Below, one piece after another: positions 28,475 through 61,919 of a DNA stretch of 64,000 bases. The notes beneath the pieces were generated by a model that saw only the letters and a list, made by a program, of their open reading frames with translations, was not told the DNA's origin and searched no databases. Numbering within the stretch: position 1 is the first letter of the stretch; each line of letters opens with the position of its first letter. Made by a program: the position numbers and the translations under genes. This stretch comes from a virus, in IMG/VR virus record IMGVR_UViG_3300048930_000192, positions 32,001 through 96,000 of that record; one strand, 5' to 3'.

Positions 28475-28721
28475 TCAAGAAATTGACAGTTTGTTTGGCG
28501 ACTATATCAAGAATCTATCACCAGAGTCGAATTCTACTATCGAGTTCGATCCAGACAACTTTGCAGATACAGAAGTAAACATGATTGGCCAGCAAGAAAT
28601 CAAATTTGAAAACGACCCATTTTATACTGACCTGAGAGATGGTACCACATATTCTAACATAAATAATCCCATTAGCCACCATGGCAGATGGGAAGATTTA
28701 GAAGATGATGCACACCGATGA
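28452..28721 (+). CDS. Hypothetical acidic protein
   Basis: ORF in operon; start uncertain. Confidence 0.45.
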   Translation: MNDQTSFNQEIDSLFGDYIKNLSPESNSTIEFDPDNFADTEVNMIGQQEIKFENDPFYTDLRDGTTYSNINNPISHHGRWEDLEDDAHR

Positions 28722-37948: not shown

Positions 37949-39228
37949 TATAATCCTCTGCGTTGTTTTTCCGCTGATATTTTGCTTAACAAATCATTCT
38001 TTTCTATAATAGTATCTGATCCGATAGAATACTGGATAATCAAAGATGGATACAGTGAAGTGAGGTCGAAGCTAATGATCCAGTCCTTGAATCCCGGTCT
38101 AGGATCTTTAACATATGCACCGGCATATTGACCGTCAATCACTTCACCCTCTTTCTTTAGAGGTATAACTATGTTTTTATTCTTTAGATAGTTGTAGATA
38201 ATACAATCCCAAGTCTTGACTTGGCCAAACACATCTTCAAAGTTGCACTTGGCAACGTATGCGATGCCTATATGCAGATCTATTAGATTCAACTTATTAT
38301 CTAATTCATCTACTATATCTACGTCTTGAATATTATACATTACAAACTTATCAAAGTCCTTTGTATAAAATTCATGCATACTATCATATTCTGTATAGTC
38401 TAACTTGGTCTTATTGAGCTCGACTTTAGCTACATGGTTTAAAGAATATGATTCTAATGTCTGTGTAGAATACTTTCTATAAAGTTCGTATAGATCTAAT
38501 ATTGATATGCCAACCAATCTGAACGTCTGGCAAGTCTTGCCACGATATTCAATTTCTTCTTCTTTTATCCAATTCCATGGCGACAATTCTTTGGTTGCTT
38601 TCTCACCAAGAAGCTTATAACATCTGTTGACAATATACGGTATATCGTAAAATCTAATGTTCCAGCCAGTTATAACATCTGGATCTATTTTCTTAAATTC
38701 AGAAATGAAGGCTTTCAACATTTCTTCTTCTGAATCATAACATTCGATAATAGTATTTTCGAAAGTAGTTATAGTCTTATTAAGACAGAAAGTATGCCTT
38801 AAACCAGTGTTCTTATTCTTTATTGTTATAACATTGATTCTTTCTGTCGGATCATCAGCTGGCGCAAATCTTTCTTCTGATTCTGTTTCAATGTCTAAAG
38901 TTACAACAACTATGTCGTGCATATCATAATGAATTTCATCAGGAAACTTATCAGAAATATACTGATACTTGTAGTCGGTATTACCGTATACTTTAAAATT
39001 ATTGATATCTTCGTATTGCTTTAGAAAGTCTCTGGCATCAGATATTGATCCTATCTCGATACGATCTAAGAAATCACCTTGAATGCTGGTATAGTCAGTA
39101 GTCTTGGCAGATGTAATATACAAAGTAGGTTTAAACGCATTATCAATATATGTTACTCTTTTGCCGTTTTCTATACCACGGTAAAGAATATTATCGCCCT
39201 TTGTTTGTACATTCGTATAATAATTCAT
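37948..39228 (-). CDS. gp43A: DNA polymerase gp43, N-terminal subunit (3'-5' exonuclease + motif A)
   Basis: LDIET, GWNIRFYDIPY, YNIQDV, SFDLTSLYPS; TAATG overlap with gp43B. Confidence 0.92.
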   Translation of the reverse strand: MNYYTNVQTKGDNILYRGIENGKRVTYIDNAFKPTLYITSAKTTDYTSIQGDFLDRIEIGSISDARDFLKQYEDINNFKVYGNTDYKYQYISDKFPDEIHYDMHDIVVVTLDIETESEERFAPADDPTERINVITIKNKNTGLRHTFCLNKTITTFENTIIECYDSEEEMLKAFISEFKKIDPDVITGWNIRFYDIPYIVNRCYKLLGEKATKELSPWNWIKEEEIEYRGKTCQTFRLVGISILDLYELYRKYSTQTLESYSLNHVAKVELNKTKLDYTEYDSMHEFYTKDFDKFVMYNIQDVDIVDELDNKLNLIDLHIGIAYVAKCNFEDVFGQVKTWDCIIYNYLKNKNIVIPLKKEGEVIDGQYAGAYVKDPRPGFKDWIISFDLTSLYPSLIIQYSIGSDTIIEKNDLLSKISAEKQRRGL

Positions 39229-47607: not shown

Positions 47608-49369
47608 TTAATCAAACATTCTAATATTAATCAAACATTCTAATATTACTGTATACCAGTGTTGTAAGAAATGATCAAGACCCGATGATATCTGATTCAT
47701 ACTTACATCAAAGTCAGATGTATAATGGGATTTGTAATAATCACTGAATTCGCCAAGTGTAGACATTAAACCAAGGTCAAATCGATTAAACAGTTTATTG
47801 ATCAACTCGCGATGTGTATAATTAAATGTAACATGTCTGAAAAATACAAGTACCTTACCGGGCATTTCTTGAATACTAACATACATTGATATAGTAATAG
47901 AACCATCAGTTTCTATAATTAAACTAACAACCGATGTGGCAATATCAAGATGGCCAGTATCTACAGGCACAATAAAACCATAATTGGGTGTGTCGTCGCC
48001 AGATAGTATGTAAATTTGAGGTACATTAGCCATTATTGGGTATATCCAGCCAATGATTGGTTATAACAACAAGATTTATGTAACTTGTCACAAATTCGAT
48101 GTCAGCCATATTATGTTTTCTCTTTTTATAATAACTTGCGAATTCCTCAGAAAAATACGAATACATCTGTTGCATTACACTCAAGAAGTTATATTTAAAG
48201 ATTGGGCCAAAATGCTTTGTAAAGCAGACCCATGAAAAATCACCATGTTTAAATCTCAATGTTATATGCAAATTGCCATTACTGCATTCTACGTTTTCGA
48301 CAGTAATGGTATAATTCTCAAATACAAAGCAACCACTATTATCAGTCAACCTGCTAATCATAACATTATAATAATGTGTATTATAGTCGGGGTTGGTCTT
48401 ATATACGTTCATGTATACCACCTGTGCCGATCTTGTTGAGCTGAGTCATATAATATAAGAAAAGGTGAGCACAATAAAATGAAACCTCGTCTATTTCATT
48501 AGATGTTAGAAGACGACCAAAATCTGCAACCACAGATCTACAAATCCTATCATAAACTGATTTATATATATCACTGATAACAGTCAGTATTGGTGCACCG
48601 ATATCGTATGTAACACCCAAATCGCAAATACATAAATCATTAATTTGCCGCTGAGGGGGTAGATCATAAGTTTGTAGATGCAAAGTAATATCACACCGTA
48701 TGTTAGTATTACCGATCGCCATACGAAAATGACTAATTGTTATATCTTTATTAAGATTATCAATAGTAGTAGGTAAACCAATAATCTGTTTGTTTGTTTG
48801 ATGAATGCTGGTATCACAACTGTTCTTTGTTATTGTAATGTTAGATAATTGATCGATACCGACGCAATAATTGATAAAGTTATCGTTTGGTATCATATAT
48901 TATGTTCCACTGTTCTAGGAAACTGAACTAAACTTAAGGTAATCAAATAATCAACAAGAAAGCAGACAAGACTGATATTATCAGGTTCTATTACAGATAT
49001 CTTAGAAAGACCACTACTAATTGTATTATTAATCGAATGTAATAACCACATTATGTCGTCGTGTATCGTAAATGAATCATTATAGAGTTCAGTATATTCT
49101 TCTTTTGGGGTTGATGAAGCCTTATTATTGATGACCTTCGCACAAAGATTGATTTTGTAATAATATCTATTGTTGATAGTATTATACCCAGCAATAAACT
49201 CTTTAAGTATTATTTTAATAGTATATTGGCTATTAGAAAATAATGCAATAACCTCTGATTCTTGCATGGTATTAGTATCTGAGTTTGGTTGATTGGATAT
49301 GTAAAATTGATATCTGATAGTATCTTTAATACATTGTGGTGTAAAGAAGTTATTATTTAATGCAGTCAT
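47608..49369 (-). CDS. Four AT-rich hypothetical ORFs (48893-49369, 48399-48896, 48026-48421, 47608-48033)
   Basis: Overlapping stop/start chain behind promoter at 49408-49436. Confidence 0.55.
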
Positions 49370-49407
49370 ATATGAAACTCACGATATAAGAACACTAATG
49401 TTGACGT

Positions 49408-49436
49408 ATTATACACGATTGGTATGATATGATCAA
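49408..49436 (-). promoter_or_regulatory. sigma70 promoter
   Basis: TTGATC-17-TATAAT. Confidence 0.7.
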
Positions 49437-49507
49437 AAATCTGAGTTTCGGTGCGTAAGATAATAGTCGCCTATAGTAGATCTATAGTGATTACCGTGAC
49501 CACCGTT

Positions 49508-49720
49508 ATTTTAACTCTGGATAGTGAAAAATTGTGGCGGCCAAAAGAACGGTAACAGTACCACCACCGTACCACCACCACCGTACCACCACCACCGTAC
49601 CACCACCACCGTACCACCACCACCATTTTGACTCTGGATAGTCACCATTTTAACTCTGGATAGTGAAAAATTGTGGCGGCCAAAATATCGTATTTAATCT
49701 TCAACGACCCCCACCACCCC
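49508..49720. repeat. Repeat block: 39-bp direct repeats (49508-49546, 49647-49685) flanking (GTACCACCACCACC)x4 plus a partial copy
   Basis: Read directly; sits at the strand and composition switch. Confidence 0.9.
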
Positions 49721-49796
49721 TCTTTATATAGTGTCTTTTCGTATCTGAGATACTACAGTTAGTGTGTACTAACAGTCGATTTTTTCACTCCAGTGC

Positions 49797-49824
49797 TTGA
49801 CTCTACGCGCGACGCGCATACACT
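49797..49824 (+). promoter_or_regulatory. sigma70-like promoter of the CC/GG-free gene
   Basis: TTGACT-16-TACACT, preceded by TCTGAGATA and GTTAGT..ACTAAC motifs shared with downstream cassettes. Confidence 0.65.
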
Positions 49825-49894
49825 CTATGTGTCTACTACGTGTCGCGCAACTTCGTGAGACACGAAAACAATAGTAGACTTGTGAGAATCTGAC

Positions 49895-50559
49895 ATGACT
49901 TCTACGCTTCAGATCGTTGCATCGTCGCACGTCGTTCGTTTTCGTGATCAAGAGCAGCGACTGTTTTCGTACAGTCTGCACGATTCGTCTGTCAGTCTCA
50001 CGCGCAACGCGCTTGCGTCGTACGCGCTCGATCGTGAAGACTCTCTCGCGCACGTGCATACGATCGATCGCGACGAATTCGAGCGCGCAAATACGCGCGT
50101 GATTCGTGACAGTGTGTACGAAAACTACGCGCAGAATCGTCACTCGATCGAGCGCGTACGACGCAAACGTTCGCGCGTGCGACGATCGATTCGTGCTTCA
50201 CTACGTTCTCGACTGTCGCGCGCTTCACTGTCAACGTCGATAACGTCAAGCGCGACAAGTGTGTGCGAATCGTGCGAAAAGTTGAATTCGACGAAGCGTA
50301 CAATGCAAGCGCAGAGCACGATTTGCAGATCGCGCAAGATTGCAGACTGCAATCGATCGAGATCATGCAAATGATCGAAGATGTGCAGAAATTGCGCGCA
50401 AAGATCGCATCGTGCATCACTCTCTTTCACAAAATGAAAGAGAGCGCAGACAAAGAGACGCGCGACAAAGCGTTTGCTGCTCTCAACGCTGCGAAAAAGC
50501 GCAAGATTCTGCTCGCAGAGATGCTCGAATCGTTGAATTGCGCAGATCTTTTCGACTAA
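49895..50559 (+). CDS. CC/GG-free early gene (~221 aa, no Gly/Pro/Trp), split by a 1-nt frameshift near 50120
   Basis: Frame of 49895 reads MTSTLQIV..DSVYE; the -1 frame continues KLRAESSLDRARTTQTFARATIDSCF..LNCADLFD* to 50559; flanked by promoter and terminator. Confidence 0.7.
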
Positions 50560-50579
50560 GATCGAAAACAGAACAAAAC

Positions 50580-50609
50580 ACGAACGAAGCGCTAACGTGC
50601 TTCGTTCGT
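50580..50609 (+). terminator. Terminator hairpin built without CC/GG
   Basis: ACGAACGAAGC-gctaacgt-GCTTCGTTCGT followed by CTTTC. Confidence 0.7.
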
Positions 50610-50843
50610 CTTTCTCACAAAGCGCCGATTGCCAGTGCTTGTTGCGCTGGCTTTCGTCGTTTTTCGGTCGGATCATAACATCGCGTTCGCCATTGTATGC
50701 ATGGTGGTATCAAAAGTCAAGTAAAAAATAAAATAATATTATACGGTGGTGGCGGACGCGAGGTTAGTAACGGCTAACTAACAACCATCTGGGATACCGT
50801 ATGTTAGTGAATACTAATGTGTGTCAAAATCAAGTCTACGTGC

Positions 50844-50872
50844 TTGACATTCGCACGTTTACGCGCTATACT
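50844..50872 (+). promoter_or_regulatory. Early sigma70 promoter
   Basis: TTGACA-17-TATACT. Confidence 0.88.
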
Positions 50873-50951
50873 TATGTGTCACACGAGAGAATATTAGACG
50901 TGAGTGTTTCACGAAAAGTAAACTCTCAAAACAAGTTTGGAGTATCTGACA

Positions 50952-51533
50952 ATGACGACCGCCAATGCTCTGCCGTTTGCCCCCGTCACCCCCGGGGCGC
51001 CCAAGACCGCCAAGCCCGCTGCCCCGAGTGGCGTGACCTACGGGGACAAGATCAATGCTGCCTTCGCGCTTGAGATTGCCCGCACCGTGGGCTTCGACCC
51101 GTTCGACGTCGCCGCTCGCCCGACCTACTTCACCCGCCCGCAGATGTTCCGCATCGCGCTCGAAAACGGGGCCAAGTGGTTTCTCGACTACTACCGCAAG
51201 CAAAAGAGTGGCAAGGGCCTGGGCAAGCTGATCGCGCAGACGGGGCAAGACTGGTACACCCCCGAATTGTTCAGCGACCCCAAGTTCTACTCCCGCTTTG
51301 GCGTCAAGCTGGGCAAGCCGAATCATGTGAGCAACAAGCACACCAAGAATGGCGTCTGCGTCGACCCGACCCGCCCGTGCCTGCCCAACGGGACCAAATG
51401 CTACGACGCCGTCGTGCTCTGGGAATCGCTTGACCGCGTGCGTGAAAAGATGGGCGAAGTTCACTACCTCGCCATGTGCGACCGCAAGCCGTTCGATGCC
51501 GCGACCGACGAAGAAACCGAAGATTCCGAGTAA
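50952..51533 (+). CDS. GC-rich early protein, paralog of 52967-53644
   Basis: GGAG RBS; shared RP.Y.TRPQM, SRFG..GKP.HVS, VDP..P.LP.GTK.YD...LW.SLDRV. Confidence 0.85.
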   Translation: MTTANALPFAPVTPGAPKTAKPAAPSGVTYGDKINAAFALEIARTVGFDPFDVAARPTYFTRPQMFRIALENGAKWFLDYYRKQKSGKGLGKLIAQTGQDWYTPELFSDPKFYSRFGVKLGKPNHVSNKHTKNGVCVDPTRPCLPNGTKCYDAVVLWESLDRVREKMGEVHYLAMCDRKPFDAATDEETEDSE

Positions 51534-51563
51534 ACCCATCGTCACGACAATCTGAGATAGACC

Positions 51564-51591
51564 CAAGGGGCTGGATCAATCCAGCCCCTTG
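51564..51591 (+). terminator. Terminator hairpin
   Basis: CAAGGGGCTGGAT-ca-ATCCAGCCCCTTG then TTT. Confidence 0.8.
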
Positions 51592-51752
51592 TTTCGGTAC
51601 ATTATCCCAAACATCGCGTCCGGCATTATAGGGGTGTGGTATGATGGTGTCAAGTGCATTAGTGAAAATTAATGTTACCGTATGGCGGACACGAGGTTAG
51701 TAAGTACTTACTAACAGATATCTGAGATAATAAAATAAAATGCACTATACAC

Positions 51753-51781
51753 TTGACATCGACTAGGTAACATGCTATACT
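51753..51781 (+). promoter_or_regulatory. Early sigma70 promoter
   Basis: TTGACA-17-TATACT. Confidence 0.88.
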
Positions 51782-51820
51782 TATGTGTCGAGTGGATCAT
51801 CTATCACAAAGGGGCTCAAA

Positions 51821-52634
51821 ATGAGCAATTGCATCCAGCCGCGTGGCAATTTCTGTCAGGGTGTCATCTTGGATCCTTCCATGTTCACTGGGCTCCTTGC
51901 CGTCGAAGATGCCGAGGGCAACAAAATCTTCCGATCCACTCGTGATGGCTGGGTCCTCAAGATGGGCAGAATAACCACATGGCGTGGGTTTCGTTGCTTT
52001 CTCTGGAACCATGTGCAACCGTTCGTCAATCAGCCGCGCGTCAAGATCCCAACCCTGATCGCCGACGAGGCTGATGAGTTTGCCGAGGCATTCACTGCCA
52101 CCGTGCACCTATTTCCACCTGGGACCAAGAGCGCAGACGTGGCTGATTGGACCAAGATTTTCCCCTGACCAGACCAAATGGAGATATGACCATGACCGAT
52201 AACCTCAAGACCGTCACCCGGAACCTTCTGATGTCTGCCCTCATGTGTGATGAGGGTGTGACCAAAGAAGTGTTCGACCGCCTTCTGGAACTCGCCGAAG
52301 AGGTGTTTGGCACGCCGGGTGCTCATGTGCTCGCGATGTACGTGGATGCCACCGATGATTGTTTCTATGTCGCGGAACACAAGGTGTCTGCCTTCATGAT
52401 CGACGTGGCTAATCTGATCTGATCACCAGACCCAATGGAGATATGACCATGACCAAGATCATTGTGACCGTGACCGACAACGAGAACCCAGAGTGTGAGC
52501 CTGCTACCTATGAGGCGCTCGTGGAAACCGGACTTTCTCCTGAAACCCAGGAAATGATCGTTCGTGGGATCCTTTTCGCCCATTCCTGGGCAGATTCTGC
52601 TGGCATCGACTATACCTGGTCCTACGACGGATAA
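51821..52634 (+). CDS. Three small early genes (51821-52168, 52186-52422, 52443-52634)
   Basis: Good RBSs, GC-rich third positions. Confidence 0.7.
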
Positions 52635-52650
52635 CCCGACCTTTCAAATG

Positions 52651-52699
52651 CGCCGATAGAACCGTGAATGGTGTGTTGCCATTCACGGTTCTATCGGCG
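52651..52699 (+). terminator. Long terminator hairpin (~21-bp stem)
   Basis: CGCCGATAGAACCGTGAATGG...CCATTCACGGTTCTATCGGCG then TGTTTTT. Confidence 0.85.
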
Positions 52700-52863
52700 T
52701 GTTTTTAGGCTCATCCGTAAACCTCGTGTCCGGCATTATAGTATATAGGTAGTGTAAAGTCAAGTATGGTATGTAAAATTGATGTTACCATGATGGCGGA
52801 CGCGATGTTAGTACTTACTAACTAACCTGTATCTGAGATAATCACAAAAAGAGCGATATACAC

Positions 52864-52892
52864 TTGACGTCTTCTAGCCTACGCGCTATCAT
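52864..52892 (+). promoter_or_regulatory. Early sigma70 promoter
   Basis: TTGACG-17-TATCAT. Confidence 0.8.
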
Positions 52893-52966
52893 TCACTGTC
52901 AACTGCAACTGTCGCGCGTCGCGTCGATCGCAAGTTGAAAATTACCCACGAAAGGGGTAAAGTATC

Positions 52967-53644
52967 ATGACCGAGAATAACAACGCCGTTGCCACCACTC
53001 CTGCCACCGCCGCCAAGAAGGGCCGCAAGCCCAAGAATGCCGCTGCCTTGCCTGATGTGCCGCCTGCCCCTGTCGCGCCTGGCGCCGCGACGCCCGAGAC
53101 CCCGATCAGCAAGCCCGCCAACGTGTCGCGTCGTGACCGTACCAATGCGGGATTCGTGCTCGACCTGTGCATGATCACTGGCACTGACCCGACCGACATC
53201 GCCAATCGCCCGCAGTATATGACCCGCCCGCAGATGGAAGCCGTTGCCATCTCGAATCGTGAGCCGTGGTACGTGAATATGTGGAACAAGCAGAAGACCA
53301 CCAAGCACCGCGACAAGACCATCGCCAAGACGCATGCCAACTGGTTCGACGAAGCCATGCTCGTCGATGGCAAGAAGTTCAGCCGATTCGGGATCGTGTG
53401 TGGCAAGCCGGGCCACGTGAGTTATGCCACTGTTCATGCCGGGGTGATGGTCGACCCCAAGGGCCCGACCCTGCCCGACGGGACCAAGCAGTACGACATC
53501 ACCCAACTCTGGGATTCTCTCGACCGAGTGATCGCTGCCTACCCCGCGGGGACCTATGCCGAACTGAGCCAGCGCAAGCCCGTTGTCGCTGATGACTCGA
53601 CCGATGAGTCTGACACCGAGACCAACGACGAGACCGCCGACTAA
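52967..53644 (+). CDS. GC-rich early protein, paralog of 50952-51533
   Basis: Shared motifs, Ala/Pro/Lys N-tail, acidic C-tail. Confidence 0.85.
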   Translation: MTENNNAVATTPATAAKKGRKPKNAAALPDVPPAPVAPGAATPETPISKPANVSRRDRTNAGFVLDLCMITGTDPTDIANRPQYMTRPQMEAVAISNREPWYVNMWNKQKTTKHRDKTIAKTHANWFDEAMLVDGKKFSRFGIVCGKPGHVSYATVHAGVMVDPKGPTLPDGTKQYDITQLWDSLDRVIAAYPAGTYAELSQRKPVVADDSTDESDTETNDETAD

Positions 53645-53674
53645 ACCCGACAACCCGACATCCTGAATCACCAC

Positions 53675-53700
53675 GAGGGGCTGGATCGATCCAGCCCCTC
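53675..53700 (+). terminator. Terminator (perfect 26-bp palindrome)
   Basis: GAGGGGCTGGATCGATCCAGCCCCTC then TTT; near-identical to 51564. Confidence 0.8.
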
Positions 53701-53841
53701 TTTCGGGTACATATACTAACCTCGTGTCCGGCATTATAGTATATAGGTAGTGTAAAGTCAAGTATGGTATGTAAAATTGATGTTACCATGATGGCGGACA
53801 CGAGGTCTATGGTTACCGATAAAATAATCGTGTGTGTAGAC

Positions 53842-53870
53842 TTGACATCATGTTGCCATAACGCTAGAAT
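53842..53870 (+). promoter_or_regulatory. Early sigma70 promoter
   Basis: TTGACA-17-TAGAAT. Confidence 0.85.
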
Positions 53871-53912
53871 AACTGTCGCGCATTGTCTCTCACATACACT
53901 GGAGATCGCCGC

Positions 53913-54401
53913 ATGGGCTACCGTGATCCTCGCCGTTTCGTGATTGCCGTCACCAACGTCAATGGCCGCAAGGACTACTATGCGGGTAGCCGTGATGGCC
54001 AACCCACATGGTCGAATGACCTGATCGACGCCTTCCAGTTTCGTGGCGAAACGGAACTGGATGCTGCAATCCTGCTCGCCAAGAAGCTTGGTGCCAGGGT
54101 CTATCAGCGTGGCGTGATGGTCGAGTGTTGGTAAGCAATTTCATCCATCTCACGCAACCACTCAAGGAGTATCATCATGGCTACCGTAAAGTCGGACCTG
54201 ACCGCCGCCCGTAGGTACCTGATCGAGGCCTATAAGGCTATCAAAGATGCCAGAACCCACTGTGATGGTGTCGTGGATGTTGAAGGCATCCACTACCATG
54301 ATATCACCAAAATCATGGACCAAGTCGATACCGTCGCTCGGATTTGCAAGGTCGAGCTGGATCGTCTGGATAAGGGTATTTTGACGTCCAAGGAATCCTG
54401 A
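53913..54401 (+). CDS. Two small early genes (53913-54134, 54177-54401)
   Basis: GGAG RBS before each ATG. Confidence 0.7.
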
Positions 54402-54441
54402 TATTTTCCGCTGTTTTCCGTAATTGTCGTCAAAAATCACG

Positions 54442-54531
54442 AAAAAACTGCATTTGGACAGCCAGGATGCAGTTTATTTTGATGGATTTACGCTCCAAAA
54501 AAACTGCATTTGGACAGCCAGGATGCAGTTT
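54442..54531. repeat. Two 34-bp palindromic direct repeats with a 22-nt spacer
   Basis: AAAAAACTGCATTTGGACAGCCAGGATGCAGTTT at 54442 and 54498. Confidence 0.85.
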
Positions 54532-54792
54532 TTCACGAAAACACGTGTTTTTTGCATTTACCCCTGCTCCGCTACAGGCCAGCCCTTACCAAACATCAAA
54601 AAACTCGCGTCCTTTTGGAAATACGTGGCAATAGGTCTATAATTTTACCTCGTGTTCGGCATGTTATGTGTATGGTGTATGATAGTCAAGTATGGTCTAA
54701 AATATTAATGTTACCAATTGATGTATAATGGTAGCGCCAATGGTGGCGAACACGAGGTATGCCATTGGTATAATATATTCGTGTGCGTACAC

Positions 54793-54821
54793 TTGACTAT
54801 GATATGCCAATCGTCTAAAAT
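54793..54821 (+). promoter_or_regulatory. Early sigma70 promoter
   Basis: TTGACT-17-TAAAAT. Confidence 0.85.
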
Positions 54822-54863
54822 AACTGTCGCGCATTCTCTCACACGATCATTGGAGTATCCACA

Positions 54864-56645
54864 ATGACAGAGCAAGACTTCAACCAGTTGCCAGACCACA
54901 TCAAGAATGCACTCAAGGAAGCCAACATCGTGGCCATGTGCACCCACCACCGATTGAACACCGACAATAGTGGTGTGATGGGCACCACCGAAGTCCATGT
55001 TGATGCCGGTTGCTATATGCACAACACGGAACTCAAAAAGTTGGTACAATGCAATGGTTTCGTGAAAATCTGCCCGTACTATATTGGCACAACGCCATCA
55101 TTGAAACTGGTCTTTTGGACCGTGGTATAAAGGAAACCACCGAAAATGAGCACCACCATCACTCGGCCAATGGTATGGGACGTCTATTACCACGACGACG
55201 ACACCATCACGATGGTAATGGGTATTACCAGTGATAATCGGGTCCATCTGCGGTCGATCAAAAAGTTGACGGATTACGACAACCACTTCGGTTACCATGG
55301 GTTCGACGACGGTGGCCTCATGTCGGTCACCATGGATGAATTCCTACGAGCACTTTCACAGTCCATCATCATCAAGGTCATCAATTTGCAACTGCCATTG
55401 TGATTTTCATGGATTTTCACCATTTTTTTAACATATATAGGCTCTTTTTAGTTTATCCACGGTCCCTATAATGTTAGATTTTTCGTGGTTTCTACGATTT
55501 TTGTAGAAAGGGTAAATGGTATATGATGCAGATTATTGATTGCCATGGCAATCCAGTTGTCAATGGTGATATTGTACAATCACATAGCGGTAAGAAATAT
55601 ACAGCCATGTTCACTGATGGTGGCATTGTTTTAGAACAATCATCTACATGGTTGTATAATCCATCTAAGGGCACAGGATCAAAGCAATACGTTTCTTCTT
55701 CCTATCATCCGATCACCATTTCATTTGAAAACTTCCCCAATACTCAATGGCATAAGGTATAATCAATTTTTTGAAATAGAAAGGGCAAATGGTCCACACA
55801 TGAGCATTATTAAACTGACCGTCAACGGCGCCACCATCACAATCGACCAAACTGCTGATGGTGATACCACCATTGGTGTTAATACACAAGGGCCTACAGT
55901 CAAAACTGAGCCCGACGGTACTCATGCTATCCCAATTGTTGACGGCGGTTACTATACACCCCCTGCACAAACTGATTCAGTTGGTCCGGCATTCAGCCCT
56001 GAGCAACTAGGCAAATTGCGGGAAGTTATTCGAGCAATTGCATACGGTATCATCTATCTTGGTCCTAGTGATGGTTCAGTCGAGGACCGGCTTCGGCGCG
56101 ACCGTAAACTTCAAGAGAAGTACCATCTAGAAAAGGATGCCTTAAATTGCCTGTGCAGTTTGGTTGGTGATACTTTTTATTGTGAGACCCTTAAGGATTT
56201 TAAGATTTAAAGGAGATTTCATTTGAATACTGGAAATGTTCCGTCGGGTGATCTAGCAGGCGAATCAGCCAAGATTCTTGAATGGCTACGGTCTAGTACC
56301 CAATCGGCTGGTGATTTTGCCATTACACAGGCACCGTTGGCTGCTCAGGAATTCATTCGATGGGAAATCGTTGGTCATGGCATCACGGCAGGTTTGTATC
56401 TTATCTGTGGTATCGCCATGTTGATATGTGGCATACTTGGCCTCAGGTATTTAATGAGCGACAAAATGAATTGGGAAAAAGGCCCAAACGGCGGTTTCGC
56501 CGTGTCTGCGGTCGGTTGTATTCTTGGTTTCGCTGCGATGGTTGGTGTGTTGCCATCTGGCATCAGCGAGGCAAAGCAGTCGATCAAGGCATACGTTGCA
56601 CCGCGGGTAGTGATTATTGAGAAAATCAGCGACCTGGTCCGATAA
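54864..56645 (+). CDS. Five small early genes (54864-55130, 55146-55403, 55523-55762, 55800-56210, 56223-56645; last has two TM segments)
   Basis: Co-oriented ORFs with RBSs; no family recognised. Confidence 0.6.
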
Positions 56646-56655
56646 CTTGTTTTTT

Positions 56656-56782
56656 GCTCGGGTATCGTGGATATGGCTCACGCACGCCCTAACCGGCGTG
56701 AAGGGGTTGGCCCCCTGCGGGCGAAAGCCTTAATGACGGTTCGAATCCGTTGGTATAGTCGGTTCGAATCCGACCCCGAGCG
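56656..56782 (+). ncRNA. tRNA-like RNA (127 nt) with expanded variable region and two T-arms
   Basis: Acceptor GCTCGGG/CCCGAGC, D-arm CGTG/CACG, ACGCC/GGCGT arm, two GGTTCGAATCC T-loops. Confidence 0.75.
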
Positions 56783-56815
56783 TTTTGACCCCTGTTTATA
56801 GATGGAATATGGCAT

Positions 56816-57534
56816 ATGAAAAGAGAAGATCTCCTAGCTTTACTTGTTAATCGGTTATCGTCTGATTTTATTATTACTGATGTTGGTCACGGTTGGTCTA
56901 ATAAGGTGATAACAGTTAAATCTGGCACCAATCAAGTAAACCTATGGGTCGATGAAACTGGTATACGCATTGTGTGTATGTGCCCAAACCCGAAAGAATC
57001 TGGTGGATGTAATAAAGTTGTTTTACCAGAAAATGTAATCGACACCATTATTTCTCTTAAAGGGCATAAATGCATGCCTTGGGGTGGGTGATTTGTATAT
57101 ATGACTGATACTAACCAACAGCCAAATAACAGGGCATTAACTCTTGAATCTATTAATAGGTCAGGATTATACACCTATTATGACGGTTGGCTAGAATATT
57201 TTGAAGGTACGCGGTGTACCATGCTTTTAACTGCCATTGGATCATACAGAAAGCATGGCCTCAATTCTTTTGTTGACAGATCCGGTCTACCCCAACAGGA
57301 ATTCCAAATATGACCAGATACACAAAGATAGTTGACACCATCGGCAATCCGATGTGTTTGTGTGCTTATATCGACCAGCACCAATTTTGCTTCTATCACA
57401 ATACTGCATGCACCATCGGCCCATTCTATTACCCAGCGGAAAACAGGCTTAGCACAGAAATTGACATTGGCCTAGCCGAATACACAGACCTTTTGATTGA
57501 AATATTACAATCAGCCAAGGCGGCCAAACTGTAA
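56816..57534 (+). CDS. Three small genes (56816-57091, 57101-57313, 57310-57534)
   Basis: Co-oriented chain of ORFs. Confidence 0.55.
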
Positions 57535-57658
57535 TTTTATTCGGCATCAAATTTCTTTAACGACAGTCTTGACAGTGATTTGCCATACGTCTACAATCAC
57601 ATGAGTGGGGCGATTCTTGTATGATTCTCACTCACCCCCCCTTATGGAGTACCTTGAA

Positions 57659-57967
57659 ATGACAACCACTCAACGCAAGGTTTGGACTCGTGACGAAATC
57701 AAGGCTCAGATCCTCACCGATGATCGTTGGGTCGAACGTGCCATCGTGGCCATCTACAACAAGCAAACCAGTCACGAACAGGCAATCGGATCGACCACGG
57801 TCCATAACGGTGTTGGCTTTGCTCACTGTCACGCCAATCTTGGATCCTATTATGCCCGTTGGATCCAGAGTGGCAAGATGCTCAGTGGCCATCATGTGGC
57901 CAAAGCTCGCAAGATTGCCCTTCGATACGTCGGGCAACTGGCCAAGATCGCAAACGGTGAGATCTAA
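57659..57967 (+). CDS. Conserved phage hypothetical protein
   Basis: RAIVAIYNKQT..EQ..T.VHNGVGF..LS..ARKI..RY..QL pattern; GGAG RBS. Confidence 0.7.
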   Translation: MTTTQRKVWTRDEIKAQILTDDRWVERAIVAIYNKQTSHEQAIGSTTVHNGVGFAHCHANLGSYYARWIQSGKMLSGHHVAKARKIALRYVGQLAKIANGEI

Positions 57968-57980
57968 AAGGAGATACACG

Positions 57981-58699
57981 ATGACGGCGAATTGGGATAA
58001 GCTGTGGGCGGCTGTGGCCGTCGCGTCGTTCATGGCGATGTGGGCACTGCCCTTGATGCTAGTGTTGTTAGCATGGGCGCTGCGCATGGAGTCGATTCGC
58101 GACCAGGATCGAGATTCGCTGGTCCGCGAATCGAACGGTCTATTGCGCGGAGCAGCATATGCGCTCATGGCCCTGTTGGTACTGATAGTGTTGCACATAC
58201 TTTATGGAAACTAGATATAGCCTGCCGCACTAATATTTTAACGTTATAGCTTGACAGTGAGTTGCCGTACGTCTACAATTGATTGGCGTTCGATGCACAA
58301 ATGAATTTTCCGCCTCTCACTCACAAAGGAATCAGCACCATGACCATCACCACTCACAATGATCTGATCGCACGGCTCAAGGCCAACTACCCCGACGAAT
58401 CGTTGGACGGTGAGTTTCTTGCGCCGGGTGTTGCTTTGGCCAACAAGCTCATTAGCTGCCATACTGTGGCCGACAACTACGAATCTTCGACCACGATCTT
58501 TGCCTTTAATCCCGAAACCACTGATGCAGAGATTCGTGACATTGCCAAGATGTGCCACTTTGATCCAGATGGATCCAGTTGCAGGTGCAGTCACGATTGC
58601 TGTGGCCACTGGTTTCATGGCGCCATCCGAATCGTTGATAACACCAGTCACCCTGCGTTTTTTCGGTTCGCCTATATCTATGGGCACAGAAATGTCTAA
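57981..58699 (+). CDS. Two small genes (57981-58214 membrane protein; 58340-58699 Cys-rich CRCSHDCCG)
   Basis: AGGAG/AGGA RBSs. Confidence 0.6.
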
Positions 58700-59151
58700 T
58701 ACAGCAACTCGCGCAATCAATCCCGAGTCAATTACACACACCGTTGGTGATGTGGGCATCTTTATGGCCACCTACGACGGGAGTGTGCGTATGCGGAACG
58801 ATCATGGCTCATATTATACCTATCTCACTCTTTATGCGGTAACTGATTTCAATATGGCCGGTTCATATCGTCCAAGTCATCGAAGCTTTGTGACCGACGA
58901 CGGAGAAATCCTAAATGATTTCTAATACAGCCACTCGCGCAATCAATCCCGACTCAATTGCACGCACCATTGGTGATGTGGGCATCTTTATAGCCACATA
59001 CGACGGGTATGTGTATATGAAAACCGATCGCGGCGCATATTACAATTACATCACTCTTTATGCGGCATCTCGTTCCAGCATGGCAGGCGCATATAATCCA
59101 AAACATCGAATCTATGTAACCGATGACGGAGAAATCCTAAATGATTTCTAA
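58692..59151 (+). CDS. Tandem duplicated microprotein genes (58692-58925, 58915-59151)
   Basis: SNTATRAINP.SI..T.GDVGIF.ATYDG...VTDDGEILNDF in both; DNA-level repeat. Confidence 0.8.
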
Positions 59152-61461
59152 GAACAGGCAACAGCCAATGTTTGTTGCCAGTAACAAATCACCAACACCG
59201 TATCGTCTGATTGATATTAGTCAGGCTCAGGCAATGGCCGGCGATACGCCGTTGCCATTGCCCGGTTGCCGAACGGCGATCAATGTTCGCAAAACTAGAA
59301 CCAGAGGCTGGCTTTATCATTTACCTTCAACCGGTACTTTCTTGTTTACCACATCAAACGAACACCGTATGATTCATGGTACTACTCAAATTATCACAAA
59401 GGCACAAACGCCAAACAAATTGCCACGAGAAGAAGCTCGGTTGCCTGCATATGTTGGCGGCCATTATCGGCCGCGATGGGATGCCGACCGCGAGGTTTGA
59501 CGGTGCATTACATTTTGACGATATCACTTGACGATGACTTACCATACGTCTACAATTGATTGGCTCTCGTTGTCTTTTCAAGAAAGGTTGATACAAGCCA
59601 TGAAGATCGTCAAGACGCATAATGCCAAGATGGGTATGGTATATCAACTGATTGCCATGGACCACAAGATTCCTAGTGCATGTGTATGGTCAACCAATGA
59701 TGGGCAACGAGTTGCCCTTTGTCTGATGCGCAAGGATCGGCATGGTGAAATGGCAATTTCTCGCATGATGAGTTGGCGAGAAAAGATGAGTTGGATCATG
59801 TTGGTGTGTTACGACATTGAGAACGTGGCCAAGGCGTTGGATATTAAGCCGATTAAGGTTTGATAGCCAACCATCTGAATTTTCCTCAAAAGAAAGGTAT
59901 CATCACAATGATTAGGCAATACAAGGTTTCTAGCAATGCCCCGGGCTTCGTTGAAAAGTATCTGTGGTCTAGTTTCTACGTGGCCGAATTGGTCAAGACC
60001 ATCCCAGATGGCTATACGGTCGATATCGAATACGAAGATCGGCCGATCTTGTCGGGCATCATCGGCCAGATGACGTTGCCGACGATCGCAACCTTGTATC
60101 GAGCCGTTGCAGTTGATCCGACTGTGTTGCCTGTGGTGACAGACGATGAGCCGTGCCAGATCAGCGGCAACGAAGGTGCAGTTCAGGGATAATTGCTTGT
60201 AGGCACATGTGGAACCCTAAAATGGATACTAGATGGGTCAGCCGAACCTTCATTAACTACACCAGTTTCGGTGCCTCAATTACTATGATTTTTTATGATG
60301 GGCATATATCTTCTGGTAGTGTATCGCTTCGCCAAGGCGGGCAATATTATACCAATAATAAGAACTTTTCACCAACAGGAGTAGAATCATGAAGTATTTT
60401 GAACGGGATAGTAAATTCAATTTCGTGGACGCAAACAACGTCTTTGTAGGCTATGACTCACATCAGGATTGCTGTGAGTTGGCTAGCTGGTATTTTTCTT
60501 TCAACCCGGGTGTAATTCCAGTTAGTGATTCAGACCATATTAGTGTTGACGAACTGGATGCATATTCGTTTGACACCGGTTATTTCCGTAAAGAGTTTGA
60601 AGATGAAACTGCAATTGCGGAATTCAAGTTGGTCGCCGCAGGTCTTCCGGATATCTATTTGATTCTTCATAACACCCATAATGGTTATTATGGGCATGGC
60701 TTTAAGTGTGAAATTTCTGGCGAAGTTCTGCGTTCGGGCATTCTGTGATATGGGTGAGTGCCGAGCACGAGGTTGATGTTATAGGCAAGTGATATTTTAA
60801 TGATATCACTTGACAGTGATTTGCCGTACGTCTACAATTAATCGACTGGTCTCACACGCATACTTTATATGGAGTATCACCAGATGCCAATTCGCCTGTC
60901 AACTCCAACCGAATACACTCTTGACATGGGTCGGTCTGATGGGAAGTTTGCTCTCAGGGCAGACAGATGGGAGTTCGCCTTCAACTACAACGGCGAAACC
61001 ATGGCTGTTCAGGTCTTGCATGATGGCATTGAGACCAGATTCAAGATGTTTCACTGGGATCTTGGCGATCGGTTTGAAGTCATCACCAAAGAAATGTTGG
61101 ACCAACGGATCCAAGACGCCATTGACCATGGCGACACTTACGATGGCAAGACGATTGAGGTCGCTGAAACTGCTGGGTATGACGCCATCATGGCAGATGT
61201 TCGCGCGCGATGGACTGCCATTTCATATATCGTTAACCCCAGGTACGCCTATTAATTTGGGAGAGGTGTATGATCCCGGCGAGAGAAATTGGTTACTCCT
61301 GCATGACTTACTATATTGCGGGTAGATGGATCATGACTTTGTATTATTCCGGTGATTTTACGAGGAATGAAATCACACACACAAGTTTTTACAGGTTATT
61401 TGAAAGCGGGGAGTATTGCTACAAAAGTAAATTATTTGACTCAACTGGTGTGGGTAGATAG
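59141..61461 (+). CDS. Small early genes (59141-59500, 59600-59863, 59908-60192, 60207-60392, 60389-60748, 60869-61255, 61270-61461)
   Basis: Co-oriented ORFs behind sigma70 promoters; 60389 has HQDCCE..HNGYYG, a common phage unknown family. Confidence 0.6.
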
Positions 61462-61546
61462 AGGCTGATTAAATTTTGCATATCGACTTGACAGTGATGT
61501 GCCGAAGTTCTATAATTTTGTACGCACTCTCTGGAGATCAAAGACG

Positions 61547-61906
61547 ATGATTAAGATCCTTTTCCTTGACGACGAAGCAGCCAGGTTTGACGTTTTGGTA
61601 AAGAATCTTGGTGATAGTGCCCAATGCCGTCATGTGAAGGACGGGTTTGAATTTCTTGAGGCTCTGTGTGATTCCAAATATGATGTTATCATGTTGGATC
61701 ATGATCTTGGCCTCTGCGATTTCACTGGTGTGGATGCAGCAAAGATTCTTGCCTGCGCACCAGAGAATCTGAATGATCACCAACTGGTAGTTGTTCATAG
61801 CATGAATGTTTGCGGCGCCGACAACATGATTTCACACATGAGGAACTCGCCGCATCTTAGGATTCGCAAGATGCCTGGTGCATGGATGAAGAATTTTCTT
61901 GGATAG
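61547..61906 (+). CDS. Stand-alone receiver-like protein (cyclic-phosphate-processing REC family)
   Basis: ILFLDD..R, IMLDHDLG, TG.D, VVHSMN..GA..M. Confidence 0.8.
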   Translation: MIKILFLDDEAARFDVLVKNLGDSAQCRHVKDGFEFLEALCDSKYDVIMLDHDLGLCDFTGVDAAKILACAPENLNDHQLVVVHSMNVCGADNMISHMRNSPHLRIRKMPGAWMKNFLG

Positions 61907-61919
61907 AAAGAGGTAAATA

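What the first reader, a model, noticed from the sequence alone, without database searches (positions are those of the whole stretch)
49791..50625. An entire early transcription unit with zero CC and zero GG dinucleotides
Seen: reading base by base, there is no CC and no GG between the CC at 49790-91 and the CC at 50625-26 (835 bp). The stretch is roughly 50% GC and CG/GC-rich; chance would give about 2 x 0.25^2 x 834, ~100 such dinucleotides. The gap covers promoter, leader (no GGAG SD), CDS and terminator, so the protein has no Gly, Pro or Trp. The next gene uses CC/GG freely. Inference: the constraint acts on DNA, not protein. Model A: virion DNA carries a bulky modification at CC/GG that blocks host RNA polymerase, and this first gene must be read before anything else, its product licensing or unmasking the rest. 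Model B: a host defence attacks CC/GG-containing DNA or RNA, and this target-free gene encodes the counter-defence.
Basis: partly seen in the sequence, partly recalled or inferred. Interest (0 to 1): 0.96.

Follow-up and report, generated by a model that had tools for sequence, protein, structure and literature searches.

The report
CC/GG-free early phage gene cassette
One small early gene unit of an uncultured T4-like phage, and its relatives in many waters, is written without a single CC or GG in its DNA, so its protein has no glycine, proline or tryptophan, which means that something still unidentified reads that two-letter step on DNA.

Summary
The next longest gap in the whole 131,810-bp record is 142 bp.

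Selection on DNA keeps it so, not chance and not protein need:
- Recoding the same protein with the neighbours' codons gives 35-90 CC/GG.
- The promoter spacer, leader and terminator are free too.
- Of 32 listed substitutions in relatives from four metagenome studies, none creates CC/GG.
- All 14 family proteins (25-91% identity) lack Pro, and 10 of 14 lack Gly.
- In the 13 counted by script, Met is never followed by V, A, D, E or G.

The unit is a sigma70-type promoter, a 221-codon ORFan (beta sheet plus helical hairpin, no known fold or family) and a hairpin. In this record the ORF is broken by a template-switch frameshift. Inverted Chi-like GGTGGTGG motifs bracket the unit.

Best reading (about 0.4): the unit escapes a factor that reads GG/CC on double-stranded DNA, probably a host defence, and encodes an accessory counter-defence protein. 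This scan noted the same ban before in at least 23 other genomes. My literature searches found nothing in print.

The parts
49791..50625 (.). Stretch with no CC and no GG on either strand (835 bp)
49797..49824 (+). Promoter P1: TTGACT, 16-nt G+C-rich spacer without CC/GG, then TACACT. It shares GTGCTTGAC and the TATGTGTC after the -10 with P2 (50844).
   Evidence: function inferred from consensus only
49880..49897 (+). Leader end with a weak GAG-type ribosome-binding site and the ATG at 49895. It parallels the GGAG...ATCTGACAATG leader of the next gene.
   Evidence: (read directly)
49895..50158 (+). ORF part A: 88 codons that align with residues 1-88 of the 221-aa homologs
50145..50169 (.). 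Break site. This is the second arm of a 25-nt inverted repeat (first arm 50010-50034, 24 of 25 complementary). Relatives differ here by five substitutions and carry one extra base.
   Evidence: template switch is my inference
50161..50559 (+). ORF part B, in another frame: 132 codons plus TAA, aligning with residues 90-221 of the homologs
50576..50613 (.). Hairpin (15-nt arms, 8-nt loop) that ends the unit. The scan scores it as a terminator for the minus strand (T-rich tail); on the plus strand the tail is weaker.
49560..49629 (.). Tandem 14-nt repeats (ACCACCACCGT-type), read on the minus strand as GGTGGTGG. 9-10 overlapping GNTGGTGG lie on the minus strand between 49568 and 49718.
   Evidence: a shorter version is present in relative L011
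50743..50752 (+). Single inverted copy of ACGGTGGTGG. It is the only plus-strand copy of this 10-mer in the record.
50692..50720 (-). Antisense sigma70-like promoter (TTGACT-17-TACAAT) that fires towards the unit's hairpin
50797..50939 (+). Second longest CC/GG-free gap of the record (142 bp): promoter P2 (50844-50872) plus leader of the next gene, ending at its GGAG
50952..51533 (+). Next gene (193 aa, G+C-rich, CC/GG used freely), with a paralog at 52967-53644. No family match.

Best explanation
The stretch is a natural gene cassette of a distant T4-like phage. It consists of a sigma70-type promoter, a 221-codon ORF and a hairpin. Purifying selection keeps it free of the GG/CC step on double-stranded DNA.

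Most likely mechanism (inferred): a factor in the infected cell reads GG/CC on duplex DNA and then binds, marks, nicks or cuts there. I think it is a host DNA-level defence. Among known readers, only PAM-scanning CRISPR effectors (type I-F/I-A CC, Cas9 NGG) read exactly this word on both strands. Because the unit offers no such site, host RNA polymerase can transcribe it from the incoming DNA whatever happens to the rest of the genome. Its product is an ORFan protein with a beta sheet and a long helical hairpin, and it would act as an accessory counter-defence or takeover factor.

Shown here: the ban; its maintenance by selection in relatives; its DNA-level nature (it includes the non-transcribed promoter spacer and codon junctions); the anatomy of the unit; and the Gly/Pro/Trp-poor protein family.

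Inferred: In this record the ORF is broken by a frameshift that looks like a quasipalindrome template switch.
For: (1) Absolute local ban: 0 CC/GG against about 110 expected, and the only outlier in the record.
(2) The ban acts at nucleotide level. Recoding the same 220 residues with the neighbours' codon usage gives a mean of 60.9 CC/GG (minimum 35 in 20,000 trials). With CC/GG-free codons only, codon junctions alone give a mean of 24.4 (minimum 11). The 104+66 non-coding bases would carry about 20.
(3) The promoter spacer is G+C-rich yet free of CC/GG. A diverged spacer in a seawater relative is also free.
(4) Relatives in 4 of 4 laid runs (4 studies: wastewater twice, seawater, freshwater) are 80-99% alike. 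None of the 32 listed substitutions inside the stretch makes CC/GG. By chance, 28% of all possible substitutions would, and 57% of those to C or G would; 14 of the 32 are to C or G. Only 40 of 255 differences were printed. All 9 loose-end consensus strings at or inside the unit (about 240 nt of unalignable relative sequence) are CC/GG-free by my reading, while several outside the unit hold 2-6.
(5) Protein family. An exhaustive HMMER search finds 4 clusters beyond the close ones. Pro is 0 in 14 of 14 proteins, Gly 0 in 10 of 14, and Trp 0 in 11 of 14. In the 13 counted by script, Met is followed by V/A/D/E/G in 0 of 72 Met-x pairs, although these five residues make up about 32% of the proteins (P0015 read by eye, likewise none in 5 pairs). 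The neighbouring genes have 7.7% Gly, 6.5% Pro and 1.6% Trp.
(6) A broken copy fits an accessory gene.
(7) Inverted GGTGGTGG motifs bracket the unit, both oriented so that a RecBCD-type enzyme coming from outside would meet them first (the orientation rule is recalled from E. coli Chi).
Against: - No reader is identified and the host is unknown.
- The protein matches no anti-defence family or fold: Pfam, PHROGs and PADLOC give nothing above cut-off; Foldseek best E 6e-3 with TM 0.15; VIA best Z 6.7.
- A cut anywhere else in the genome would still kill the phage, so a single target-free gene helps only in three cases: the DNA enters in order, the damage is reversible, or the product serves kin. 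None of these is shown.
- T4-type phages are usually circularly permuted (recalled). The record is a linear 72%-complete fragment, so the ends cannot be placed.
- CC/GG is not depleted genome-wide (observed/expected 0.75-1.35 per 2 kb), unlike the published PAM depletion (PMC12174588, abstract read).
- Selection per PAM should be weak, which fits poorly with a ban strict enough to remove three amino acids.
- Earlier unchecked notes of this scan report the same ban in phages of Rhizobium and Pseudomonas syringae. By my recollection, CC-PAM CRISPR is uncommon in those hosts.
- P0002/P0010 carry 2 Gly, P0003 and P0011 carry 1, and P0005/P0011/P0012 carry 1 Trp, so the ban is not absolute everywhere.
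- Early expression rests only on promoter consensus and position. No RNA holder was listed.
Confidence: 0.4

Rival explanations
1. The reader belongs to the phage. Either virion DNA carries a phage-made mark at CC/GG, or the phage (or the cassette itself) makes a DNA-acting weapon that reads CC/GG. In both cases the unit must stay unmarked or uncut so that it keeps being expressed.
For: The all-or-none pattern, running from the promoter to just past the hairpin, is what a per-site block of transcription would select. The later early promoters of this record carry a fixed TGCC in the spacer, while P1 and P2 have no CC, so two promoter classes exist. The record holds two PF01555 methylases, one with an unusual GPPEY motif. 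The same ban noted in many unrelated phages (unchecked notes) is easier to explain by something phages carry than by one host defence.
Against: The record holds no TGT/DpdA, no thymidylate-synthase-like enzyme and no C5 methylase, but it is only 72% complete. Methyl groups do not stop RNA polymerase (established knowledge). One methylase has the adenine-type DPPY motif. The gene behind the sister promoter P2 is full of CC/GG. A licensing gene should be essential, yet this copy is frameshifted. The cassette proteins of other genomes share no detectable sequence with this one.
Confidence: 0.2
2. The ban tunes expression. Without GG or CC there can be no G-quadruplex or i-motif on either strand, there are fewer pause and Shine-Dalgarno-like sites, and there are no slow Pro/Gly codons. 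The first message would then be made and translated as fast as possible.
For: The unit sits first in the rightward block of small genes behind a consensus-type promoter. GG-free RNA has no GGAG-like internal sites and the protein has no Pro.
Against: Such effects need runs or longer motifs, not every single step. They do not explain the ban in the non-transcribed promoter spacer or the equal ban on CC at codon junctions. The gene even gives up its own GGAG ribosome-binding site, which should lower expression rather than raise it. The other early genes of the same record do not follow the rule.
Confidence: 0.1
3. The ban works at RNA level. A ribonuclease or RNA-binding factor reads GG and/or CC in single-stranded RNA, as RegB reads GGAG or MazF reads ACA (recalled). 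Both the message and an antisense RNA must escape it.
For: An antisense promoter (50720-50692) fires into the 3' end of the unit.
Against: The ban is symmetric, and it covers about 40 bp of G+C-rich promoter upstream of any plausible start, also in a diverged relative. The antisense RNA should stop at the hairpin after about 110 nt, so it cannot explain the CC ban across 800 nt.
Confidence: 0.05
4. There is no selection for the ban itself. Either a context-specific mutator (a CC-directed deaminase of the APOBEC3G type) has erased CC/GG, or the cassette came from a donor with such a composition.
For: TC and GA (74 each) exceed CT and AG (47, 46), as CC to TC changes would give. The unit is flanked by a 10-bp direct repeat, CCAGTGCTTG, and relatives show other cassettes behind like promoters, so it is a mobile module.
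Against: G+C stays at 51% with CG at twice expectation, which is not the A+T drift that deamination gives. The protein family is conserved from 25 to 91% identity with the ban intact. Substitutions to C or G occur in relatives but never next to the same base. The boundaries coincide with the unit.
Confidence: 0.05
5. The protein itself must lack Gly, Pro and Trp for its function, and the DNA pattern is a by-product.
For: The C-terminal half is a long helical hairpin, a fold that is poor in Gly and Pro.
Against: Given the same protein, 35-90 CC/GG are expected from synonymous choice and codon junctions, and the non-coding parts are free too. The N-terminal 130 residues are predicted beta strands with turns, where Gly and Pro are normally common. 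Met-[VADEG] avoidance has no protein rationale.
Confidence: 0.02

Closest known systems
Pre-early (first-step-transfer) DNA of phage T5 and the leading end of T7 with gene 0.3/ocr (recalled knowledge, no call)
   Same: A small unit transcribed by host polymerase is expressed before the rest of the genome. It lacks the sites of a host nuclease and encodes functions that protect the rest.
   Different: In T5 and T7 the avoided words are 6-bp restriction sites, and the logic rests on ordered DNA entry. Here the avoided word is a dinucleotide, and the ban is total and costs three amino acids. The phage is T4-like, and its ends and entry order are unknown. The protein is unrelated to any known anti-restriction protein.
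CRISPR PAM depletion in phage genomes, e.g. CC depletion in Pseudomonas aeruginosa phages targeted by type I-F (PMC12174588; abstract and outline read)
   Same: The word is exactly CC read on either strand of duplex DNA, and the driver is escape from a defence.
   Different: The published effect is a modest, genome-wide statistical depletion. Here the depletion is absolute, confined to one 835-bp unit, and absent elsewhere in the genome.
Messages that lack the site of a short-motif endoribonuclease (ACA-less mRNAs and MazF; T4 RegB at GGAG)
   Same: A gene escapes a cutter of very short words simply by not containing the word.
   Different: Those cases act on one RNA strand. Here the ban is symmetric and includes non-transcribed promoter DNA.
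Chlorovirus Nt.CviPII/M.CviPII, a nicking enzyme and methylase reading CCD
   Same: It shows that enzymes reading a CC-type word of two to three letters on duplex DNA exist and are used in virus-host conflict.
   Different: It comes from a eukaryotic algal virus. Self-protection there is by methylation of the whole genome, not by avoidance in one gene. No homolog was looked for or found here.
Promoter-early-stem-loop (PeSL) gene cassettes of T4-type phages (recalled: Arbiol, Comeau, Krisch and colleagues, 2010; not fetched)
   Same: Both are small early ORFan units bounded by an early promoter and a stem-loop, and are shuffled between relatives. Here there is a flanking 10-bp direct repeat, and other sequence follows like promoters in relatives.
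   Different: PeSL cassettes are not reported to avoid any dinucleotide.

Membership tests
Defence-motif avoidance (restriction site or CRISPR PAM depletion) | A specific short word is rarer than composition predicts | tested here: met
   0 CC/GG against about 110 expected
Defence-motif avoidance (restriction site or CRISPR PAM depletion) | The word equals the recognition motif of a defence present in the host | not testable with these tools
   The host is unknown; the record is an uncultured virus contig. CC/NGG as a PAM is recalled and supported by the abstract of PMC12174588.
Defence-motif avoidance (restriction site or CRISPR PAM depletion) | Depletion extends over the genome or all targeted regions | tested here: not met
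   Observed/expected is 0.75-1.35 per 2-kb bin elsewhere, and no other 300-bp window falls below P 4e-3
General restriction-site avoidance | Short palindromic sites in general are rare | tested here: not met
   GATC 14, GCGC 23, CGCG 18, TCGA 15 and CGATCG 5 in 835 bp, which is 3 to 30 times the genome density
First-entering pre-early region (T5 FST, T7 leading end) | Lies at the genome end that enters the cell first | not testable with these tools
   The record is linear without end repeats and 72% complete. Only contigs, no raw reads, were laid.
First-entering pre-early region (T5 FST, T7 leading end) | Transcribed by unmodified host RNA polymerase | tested here: inconclusive
   A sigma70-like promoter matches 9 of 12 consensus positions. 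No RNA data.
First-entering pre-early region (T5 FST, T7 leading end) | Encodes anti-restriction or takeover functions | tested here: inconclusive
   No family or fold match
Anti-CRISPR locus | Small ORFan protein next to an HTH regulator (aca) | tested here: inconclusive
   The ORFan part is met. The next gene has no Pfam or PHROG match, so no HTH was seen.
Anti-CRISPR locus | Inhibits a CRISPR-Cas system | not testable with these tools
   Needs an assay
Hypermodified phage DNA (7-deazaguanine, hydroxymethyl pyrimidines) | DpdA/TGT or a thymidylate-synthase-like hydroxymethylase is encoded | tested here: inconclusive
   PF01702 and PF00303 were not found, with controls positive, but the record is only 72% complete
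T4-type phage | T4-like replication and baseplate genes | tested here: met
   gp43 in two parts, three baseplate wedge proteins and the RNR large subunit. gp43 is 45% identical to cyanophage S-PM2.
Quasipalindrome template-switch mutation | A cluster of changes that turns an imperfect inverted repeat into a near-perfect one | tested here: met
   The arms are 24 of 25 complementary in the window. Five substitutions and one missing base, all within arm 2, separate it from relatives in 3 of 3 runs with cover. An assembly error is not excluded.

The most novel reading that the evidence does not exclude
The unit is a nuclease-proof expression capsule, and it is the footprint of an undescribed, widespread activity (not CRISPR) that reads the GG/CC step on duplex DNA. 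Outside it, inward-protecting Chi-like GGTGGTGG arrays stop RecBCD-type degradation from both sides. The unit therefore stays transcribable even while the rest of the incoming genome is marked or destroyed, and its Gly/Pro/Trp-free product disarms the cell for the same phage or for kin phages.
Probability: 0.12. Interest if true: 0.95.

Novelty: new variant of a known kind. Interest (0 to 1): 0.85.

Why it matters
A complete ban on one dinucleotide, held by selection across a protein family down to 25% identity and paid for with three amino acids and the normal ribosome-binding site, means each single GG/CC in this unit is costly. No described bacterial or phage system is known to act on every GG/CC of duplex DNA. 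PAM-scanning CRISPR complexes come closest, but they should not select this strongly.

The cassette is therefore a sequence footprint that points to an unidentified reader, either a defence or a phage mark, and it gives a direct handle to find it. Put GG/CC back into the unit of a cultured relative and ask which host or phage gene makes that costly.

It also supplies natural proteins built from 17 amino acids. Such units can be found by a trivial scan, which may flag first-expressed anti-defence genes in uncultured phages.

Tried and rejected
Searches for relatives' DNA that found nothing:
- Megablast and tblastn of the unit and both ORF parts against the phage collection.
- The search for related loci in viral contigs with both ORF parts, P0006, P0007 and the next gene.
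- The search for related loci in metagenome contigs with A2 and P0012.
- The search for related loci in genome contigs with A2.

Partial results from searches for relatives:
- The left-neighbour gene found one relative, L011 (80% aa, 86% nt). Its contig ends inside the repeat array about 200 bp before the unit, so it says nothing about the unit.
- A degenerate P1/P2 promoter pattern found 8 viral contigs. None has a CC/GG-free stretch of 200 bp or more; the longest is 189 bp in A+T-rich DNA. I take these as chance promoter matches.
- A 19-nt motif of an alternative cassette seen in relatives was not found in viral contigs, and a related 18-nt motif was not found in the window.

Protein function:
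- Pfam gave only CagZ at E 0.012, below the cut-off.
- PHROGs gave nothing better than E 0.013.
- PADLOC gave only LmuA at E 0.0035 for one homolog.
- The ESM Atlas gave no usable hit.
- Foldseek against PDB and BFVD gave nothing at E <= 0.001.
- VIA wide gave a best Z of 6.7, generic helical-hairpin matches only.
- The first structure model (3 sequences) had pLDDT 48 and was set aside.

Other checks:
- Rfam had no match in 49300-51000.
- DarT1 was considered as a guanine-modifying defence. The paper's passages say no consensus motif was found and that adjacent Gs are not doubly modified, so it gives no reason for a GG ban (PMC11543638, passages).
- General restriction avoidance is rejected.
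- No RNA holder was listed among the sequencing runs, so nothing can be said on expression.
- Supplementary files of papers were not consulted.

Literature. Searches (terms on PAM depletion, GG/CC dinucleotide, dinucleotide avoidance in early genes, and no glycine/no proline) listed no paper describing a dinucleotide-free transcription unit. This covers only the held library. PMC13575424 was seen only as a listing and the start of its abstract. Work by Modell 2017, Levy 2015, Dabert 1992, Borges/Landsberger 2018 and Arbiol 2010 is recalled and was not fetched.
Full report
OBSERVATION. Window 49791-50625 holds no CC and no GG. The flanking CCs are at 49790-91 and 50625-26.
- The stretch is 51.3% G+C (A221 C219 G209 T186), with CG 113 and GC 83, so G and C are abundant but never adjacent to themselves.
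- Its own composition predicts 109.6 CC+GG. In 5000 shuffles the mean was 109.2 and the minimum 75. log10 P(0) runs from about -51 (own composition) to -29 (genome-wide dinucleotide frequency).
- The window is bases 32001-96000 of a single 131,810-bp record. In that record the next longest gaps are 142, 139 and 125 bp.
- In 300-bp windows only this unit departs from expectation: P 2e-21 and 1e-15, with the next best at 4e-3.
- Apart from CC/GG words, the only missing trinucleotide is TTA. CG-containing words and GATC, GCGC, CGCG and TCGA are enriched, so this is not general restriction-site avoidance.

WHAT THE GENOME IS. The record is an uncultured virus contig, linear, with no end repeats and an estimated completeness of 72%. 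It encodes a DNA polymerase gp43 in two parts, three baseplate wedge proteins and a ribonucleotide reductase with an HNH insertion. gp43 is 45% identical to that of cyanophage S-PM2, so this is a distant T4-type phage. Left of the unit lie A+T-rich leftward genes. Right of it begins a G+C-richer block (45-58%) of small rightward ORFs behind many sigma70-like promoters.

ANATOMY OF THE UNIT.
- Promoter: P1 is TTGACT, a 16-nt spacer, then TACACT, at 49797-49824. It shares GTGCTTGAC and a TATGTGTC after the -10 with P2 (50844) and partly with a third promoter at 51753. From 52864 onward most promoters instead carry a conserved TGCC in the spacer.
- Leader: it ends in GAGAATCTGAC-ATG, parallel to the GGAGTATCTGACA-ATG of the next gene. 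The start at 49895 is therefore credible, and the usual GGAG is replaced by a GG-free version.
- Hairpin: arms at 50576-90 and 50599-613 close the unit. The pattern scan scores it as a terminator for the minus strand.
- Antisense promoter: 50720-50692 points at the hairpin.
- Flanks: a 10-bp direct repeat, CCAGTGCTTG, flanks the unit at 49790 and 50632.
- Rfam has no match here.

THE ORF AND ITS FAMILY. In this record the coding sequence changes frame near 50158. Homologs are single ORFs of 196-222 residues:
- P0001, P0002, P0004 and the fragment P0003.
- P0005-P0008, from an exhaustive HMMER search of 1.84 billion representatives, which found only these 4 clusters.
- P0009-P0013 as cluster members.
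- P0015.

All sit on contigs of 820-2433 bp. The two parts of the window ORF align end to end with P0001 at 84% and 95% identity.

THE FRAMESHIFT. Contigs of four public runs from four studies (two wastewater, one seawater, one freshwater) were laid on the window. In 3 of 3 runs with cover, relatives carry one extra base at 50155 or 50159 and five substitutions between 50150 and 50169. All these changes fall in the second arm of a 25-nt inverted repeat (50010-34 and 50145-69) that is 24 of 25 complementary in the window. I read this as a quasipalindrome template-switch mutation that broke the gene in this lineage. A local assembly error cannot be excluded without reads. The converted segment is itself a copy of CC/GG-free sequence, so the ban is unaffected.

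THE BAN IS ON DNA, NOT ON THE PROTEIN.
- Keeping the 220 residues and drawing synonymous codons from seven neighbouring genes gives a mean of 60.9 CC/GG (minimum 35 in 20,000 trials).
- Allowing only CC/GG-free codons still gives a mean of 24.4 at codon junctions (minimum 11).
- The 104 non-coding bases before the ATG and the 66 after the stop would carry about 12 and 7.
- The roughly 40 bp from the -35 to the likely start are 55% G+C and free of CC/GG. A seawater relative has a different, equally G+C-rich and equally CC/GG-free spacer.

So the rule holds in DNA that is not transcribed, and it holds on both strands.

SELECTION KEEPS IT IN RELATIVES.
- Of the differences printed (40 of 255; the other 215 were not shown), 32 are substitutions inside the stretch. 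Applied run by run (32, 19, 8 and 21 of them), they create no CC/GG.
- 28% of all possible single substitutions would create one, as would 57% of those to C or G. 14 of the 32 are to C or G.
- Nine loose-end consensus strings lie at or inside the unit. This is relative sequence that no longer aligns, including another terminator hairpin and another promoter spacer, about 240 nt in all. They contain no CC/GG by my reading, while several loose ends in the next gene hold 2-6 each.
- At protein level, Pro is absent from 14 of 14 family members, Gly from 10 of 14 and Trp from 11 of 14 (P0015 by eye). In the neighbouring genes these residues make up 7.7% (Gly), 6.5% (Pro) and 1.6% (Trp).
- A test needs no DNA. 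Met has the single codon ATG, so a GG ban forbids V, A, D, E or G after Met. This pair occurs in 0 of 72 Met-x pairs in 13 proteins (38 pairs in the 7 cluster representatives). These five residues are 29-35% of the proteins. The members are related, so the pairs are not independent. Even so, the five most diverged lineages alone give 26 pairs.
- Exceptions exist: 2 Gly in P0002/P0010, 1 Gly in P0003 and P0011, and 1 Trp in P0005/P0011/P0012. The rule is therefore strong but not absolute in every relative.

THE PROTEIN. With seven sequences, AlphaFold gives pLDDT 68.1 and pTM 0.59. It predicts beta strands over residues 5-131 (low confidence before residue 90) and a confident helical hairpin at 140-213. 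I cannot name a function from sequence or fold:
- Foldseek finds nothing at E <= 0.001 in PDB or BFVD.
- VIA wide gives at best Z 6.7, and those are generic helical matches.
- Pfam, PHROGs, PADLOC and the ESM Atlas give nothing usable.
- The isoelectric point ranges from 5.1 to 8.5 across the family, so it is not a strongly acidic DNA mimic.

FLANKING MOTIFS. Upstream lie tandem 14-nt repeats that read GGTGGTGG on the minus strand. There are 9-10 GNTGGTGG sites between 49568 and 49718, out of 26 on that strand in the whole record. Downstream, at 50743-52, is the only plus-strand copy of ACGGTGGTGG in the record. A relative (L011) has a shorter version, and its contig ends there. If the host's Chi resembles GNTGGTGG (recalled for Haemophilus; E. 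coli has GCTGGTGG), both sets face so that RecBCD coming from outside meets them before the unit. This is an inference. The chance of that orientation alone is 1 in 4.

WHAT READS GG/CC?
- I looked for a phage-made DNA mark. The record has no TGT/DpdA, no thymidylate-synthase-like enzyme and no C5 methylase. It has two PF01555 methylases, one with DPPY (adenine type) and one with an unusual GPPEY. The missing 28% of the genome leaves this open.
- CRISPR effectors with CC or NGG PAMs are the only known readers of exactly this word on both strands. CC depletion in phages is published (PMC12174588, abstract). Against this, there is no genome-wide depletion here, per-PAM selection should be weak, and the host is unknown.
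- DarT1 modifies guanine without a consensus motif (PMC11543638, passages), so it gives no reason for this ban.

I therefore commit only to the general mechanism: escape from a duplex-DNA reader of GG/CC by a first-expressed accessory gene, with confidence about 0.4. Within that, CRISPR PAM reading is the most concrete candidate but less than even odds. A phage-side mark or weapon is the main rival (0.2). The broken copy argues for an accessory role rather than an essential licensing role.

EARLIER NOTES OF THIS SCAN. The same stretch was noted twice. Other notes on this record gave me the leads on the spacer CC of later promoters (checked), the antisense promoters (checked in part) and the CC-rich repeat with its Chi likeness (checked in part). 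By words, the index lists CC/GG-free early cassettes with Gly/Pro/Trp-free proteins in at least 23 other genomes. These notes are unchecked, and I did not test them. By sequence, none of those cassettes shares words with this protein.

NOVELTY. Motif avoidance and target-free leading genes are known kinds. A complete dinucleotide ban over a whole transcription unit, conserved through a protein family and reshaping its amino-acid alphabet, is not described in the papers that four searches listed. I file it as a new variant of a known kind.

Noticed in passing
window 50010-50034 and 50145-50169: The frameshift that splits the ORF coincides with a 25-nt inverted repeat made near-perfect (24 of 25) by five substitutions and one lost base relative to environmental relatives. 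This is the signature of a quasipalindrome template-switch mutation, or possibly a local assembly error.
   Followed up: partly
window 49560-49720 and 50743-50752: The CC/GG-free unit is bracketed by inverted copies of ACGGTGGTGG. Upstream there is an array of 9-10 Chi-like GNTGGTGG on the minus strand; downstream there is the only plus-strand copy in the record. Copy number varies in relatives, and assemblies break here.
   Followed up: partly
window 52864-64000 and on to genome 130500: About 25 rightward sigma70-like promoters share a conserved spacer core, T(G/A)CC(A/G), at a fixed position (TTGACn-N7-TGCC-N6-TAnAAT). The first three rightward promoters (49797, 50844, 51753) lack it and share TAYACT-TATGTGTC instead, so there are two promoter classes.
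   Followed up: partly
Read laying on window 49300-51700, places 49821 and 50880: In wastewater and seawater relatives, a different CC/GG-free, CG-rich sequence follows P1-like and P2-like promoters. It shares a 19-nt start and is absent from this window. Relatives therefore seem to carry further or alternative CC/GG-free cassettes.
   Followed up: partly
window 50000-64000 versus 1-49000: Composition switches sharply at the unit: 32-40% G+C in the leftward replication and structural genes, against 41-58% in the rightward block of small early ORFs.
   Followed up: no
window 30785-34687 (minus strand): The 1300-aa ribonucleotide reductase large subunit carries an HNH endonuclease domain (residues about 405-476) between its two RNR halves, which suggests an intein or an inserted homing endonuclease. 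DNA polymerase gp43 is split into two adjacent ORFs (37948-39228 and 36545-37948).
   Followed up: no
window 28705-29430 (+) and genome 99839-100384 (-): There are two PF01555 DNA methylases. The first has the adenine-type DPPY motif. The second has an unusual GPPEY where motif IV is expected, and its target is unknown.
   Followed up: partly
window 50677-50796 and 51610-51729: Repeated inter-gene modules (47-nt and 21-nt direct repeats about 933 bp apart), each holding a leftward consensus promoter, separate the first early genes.
   Followed up: no
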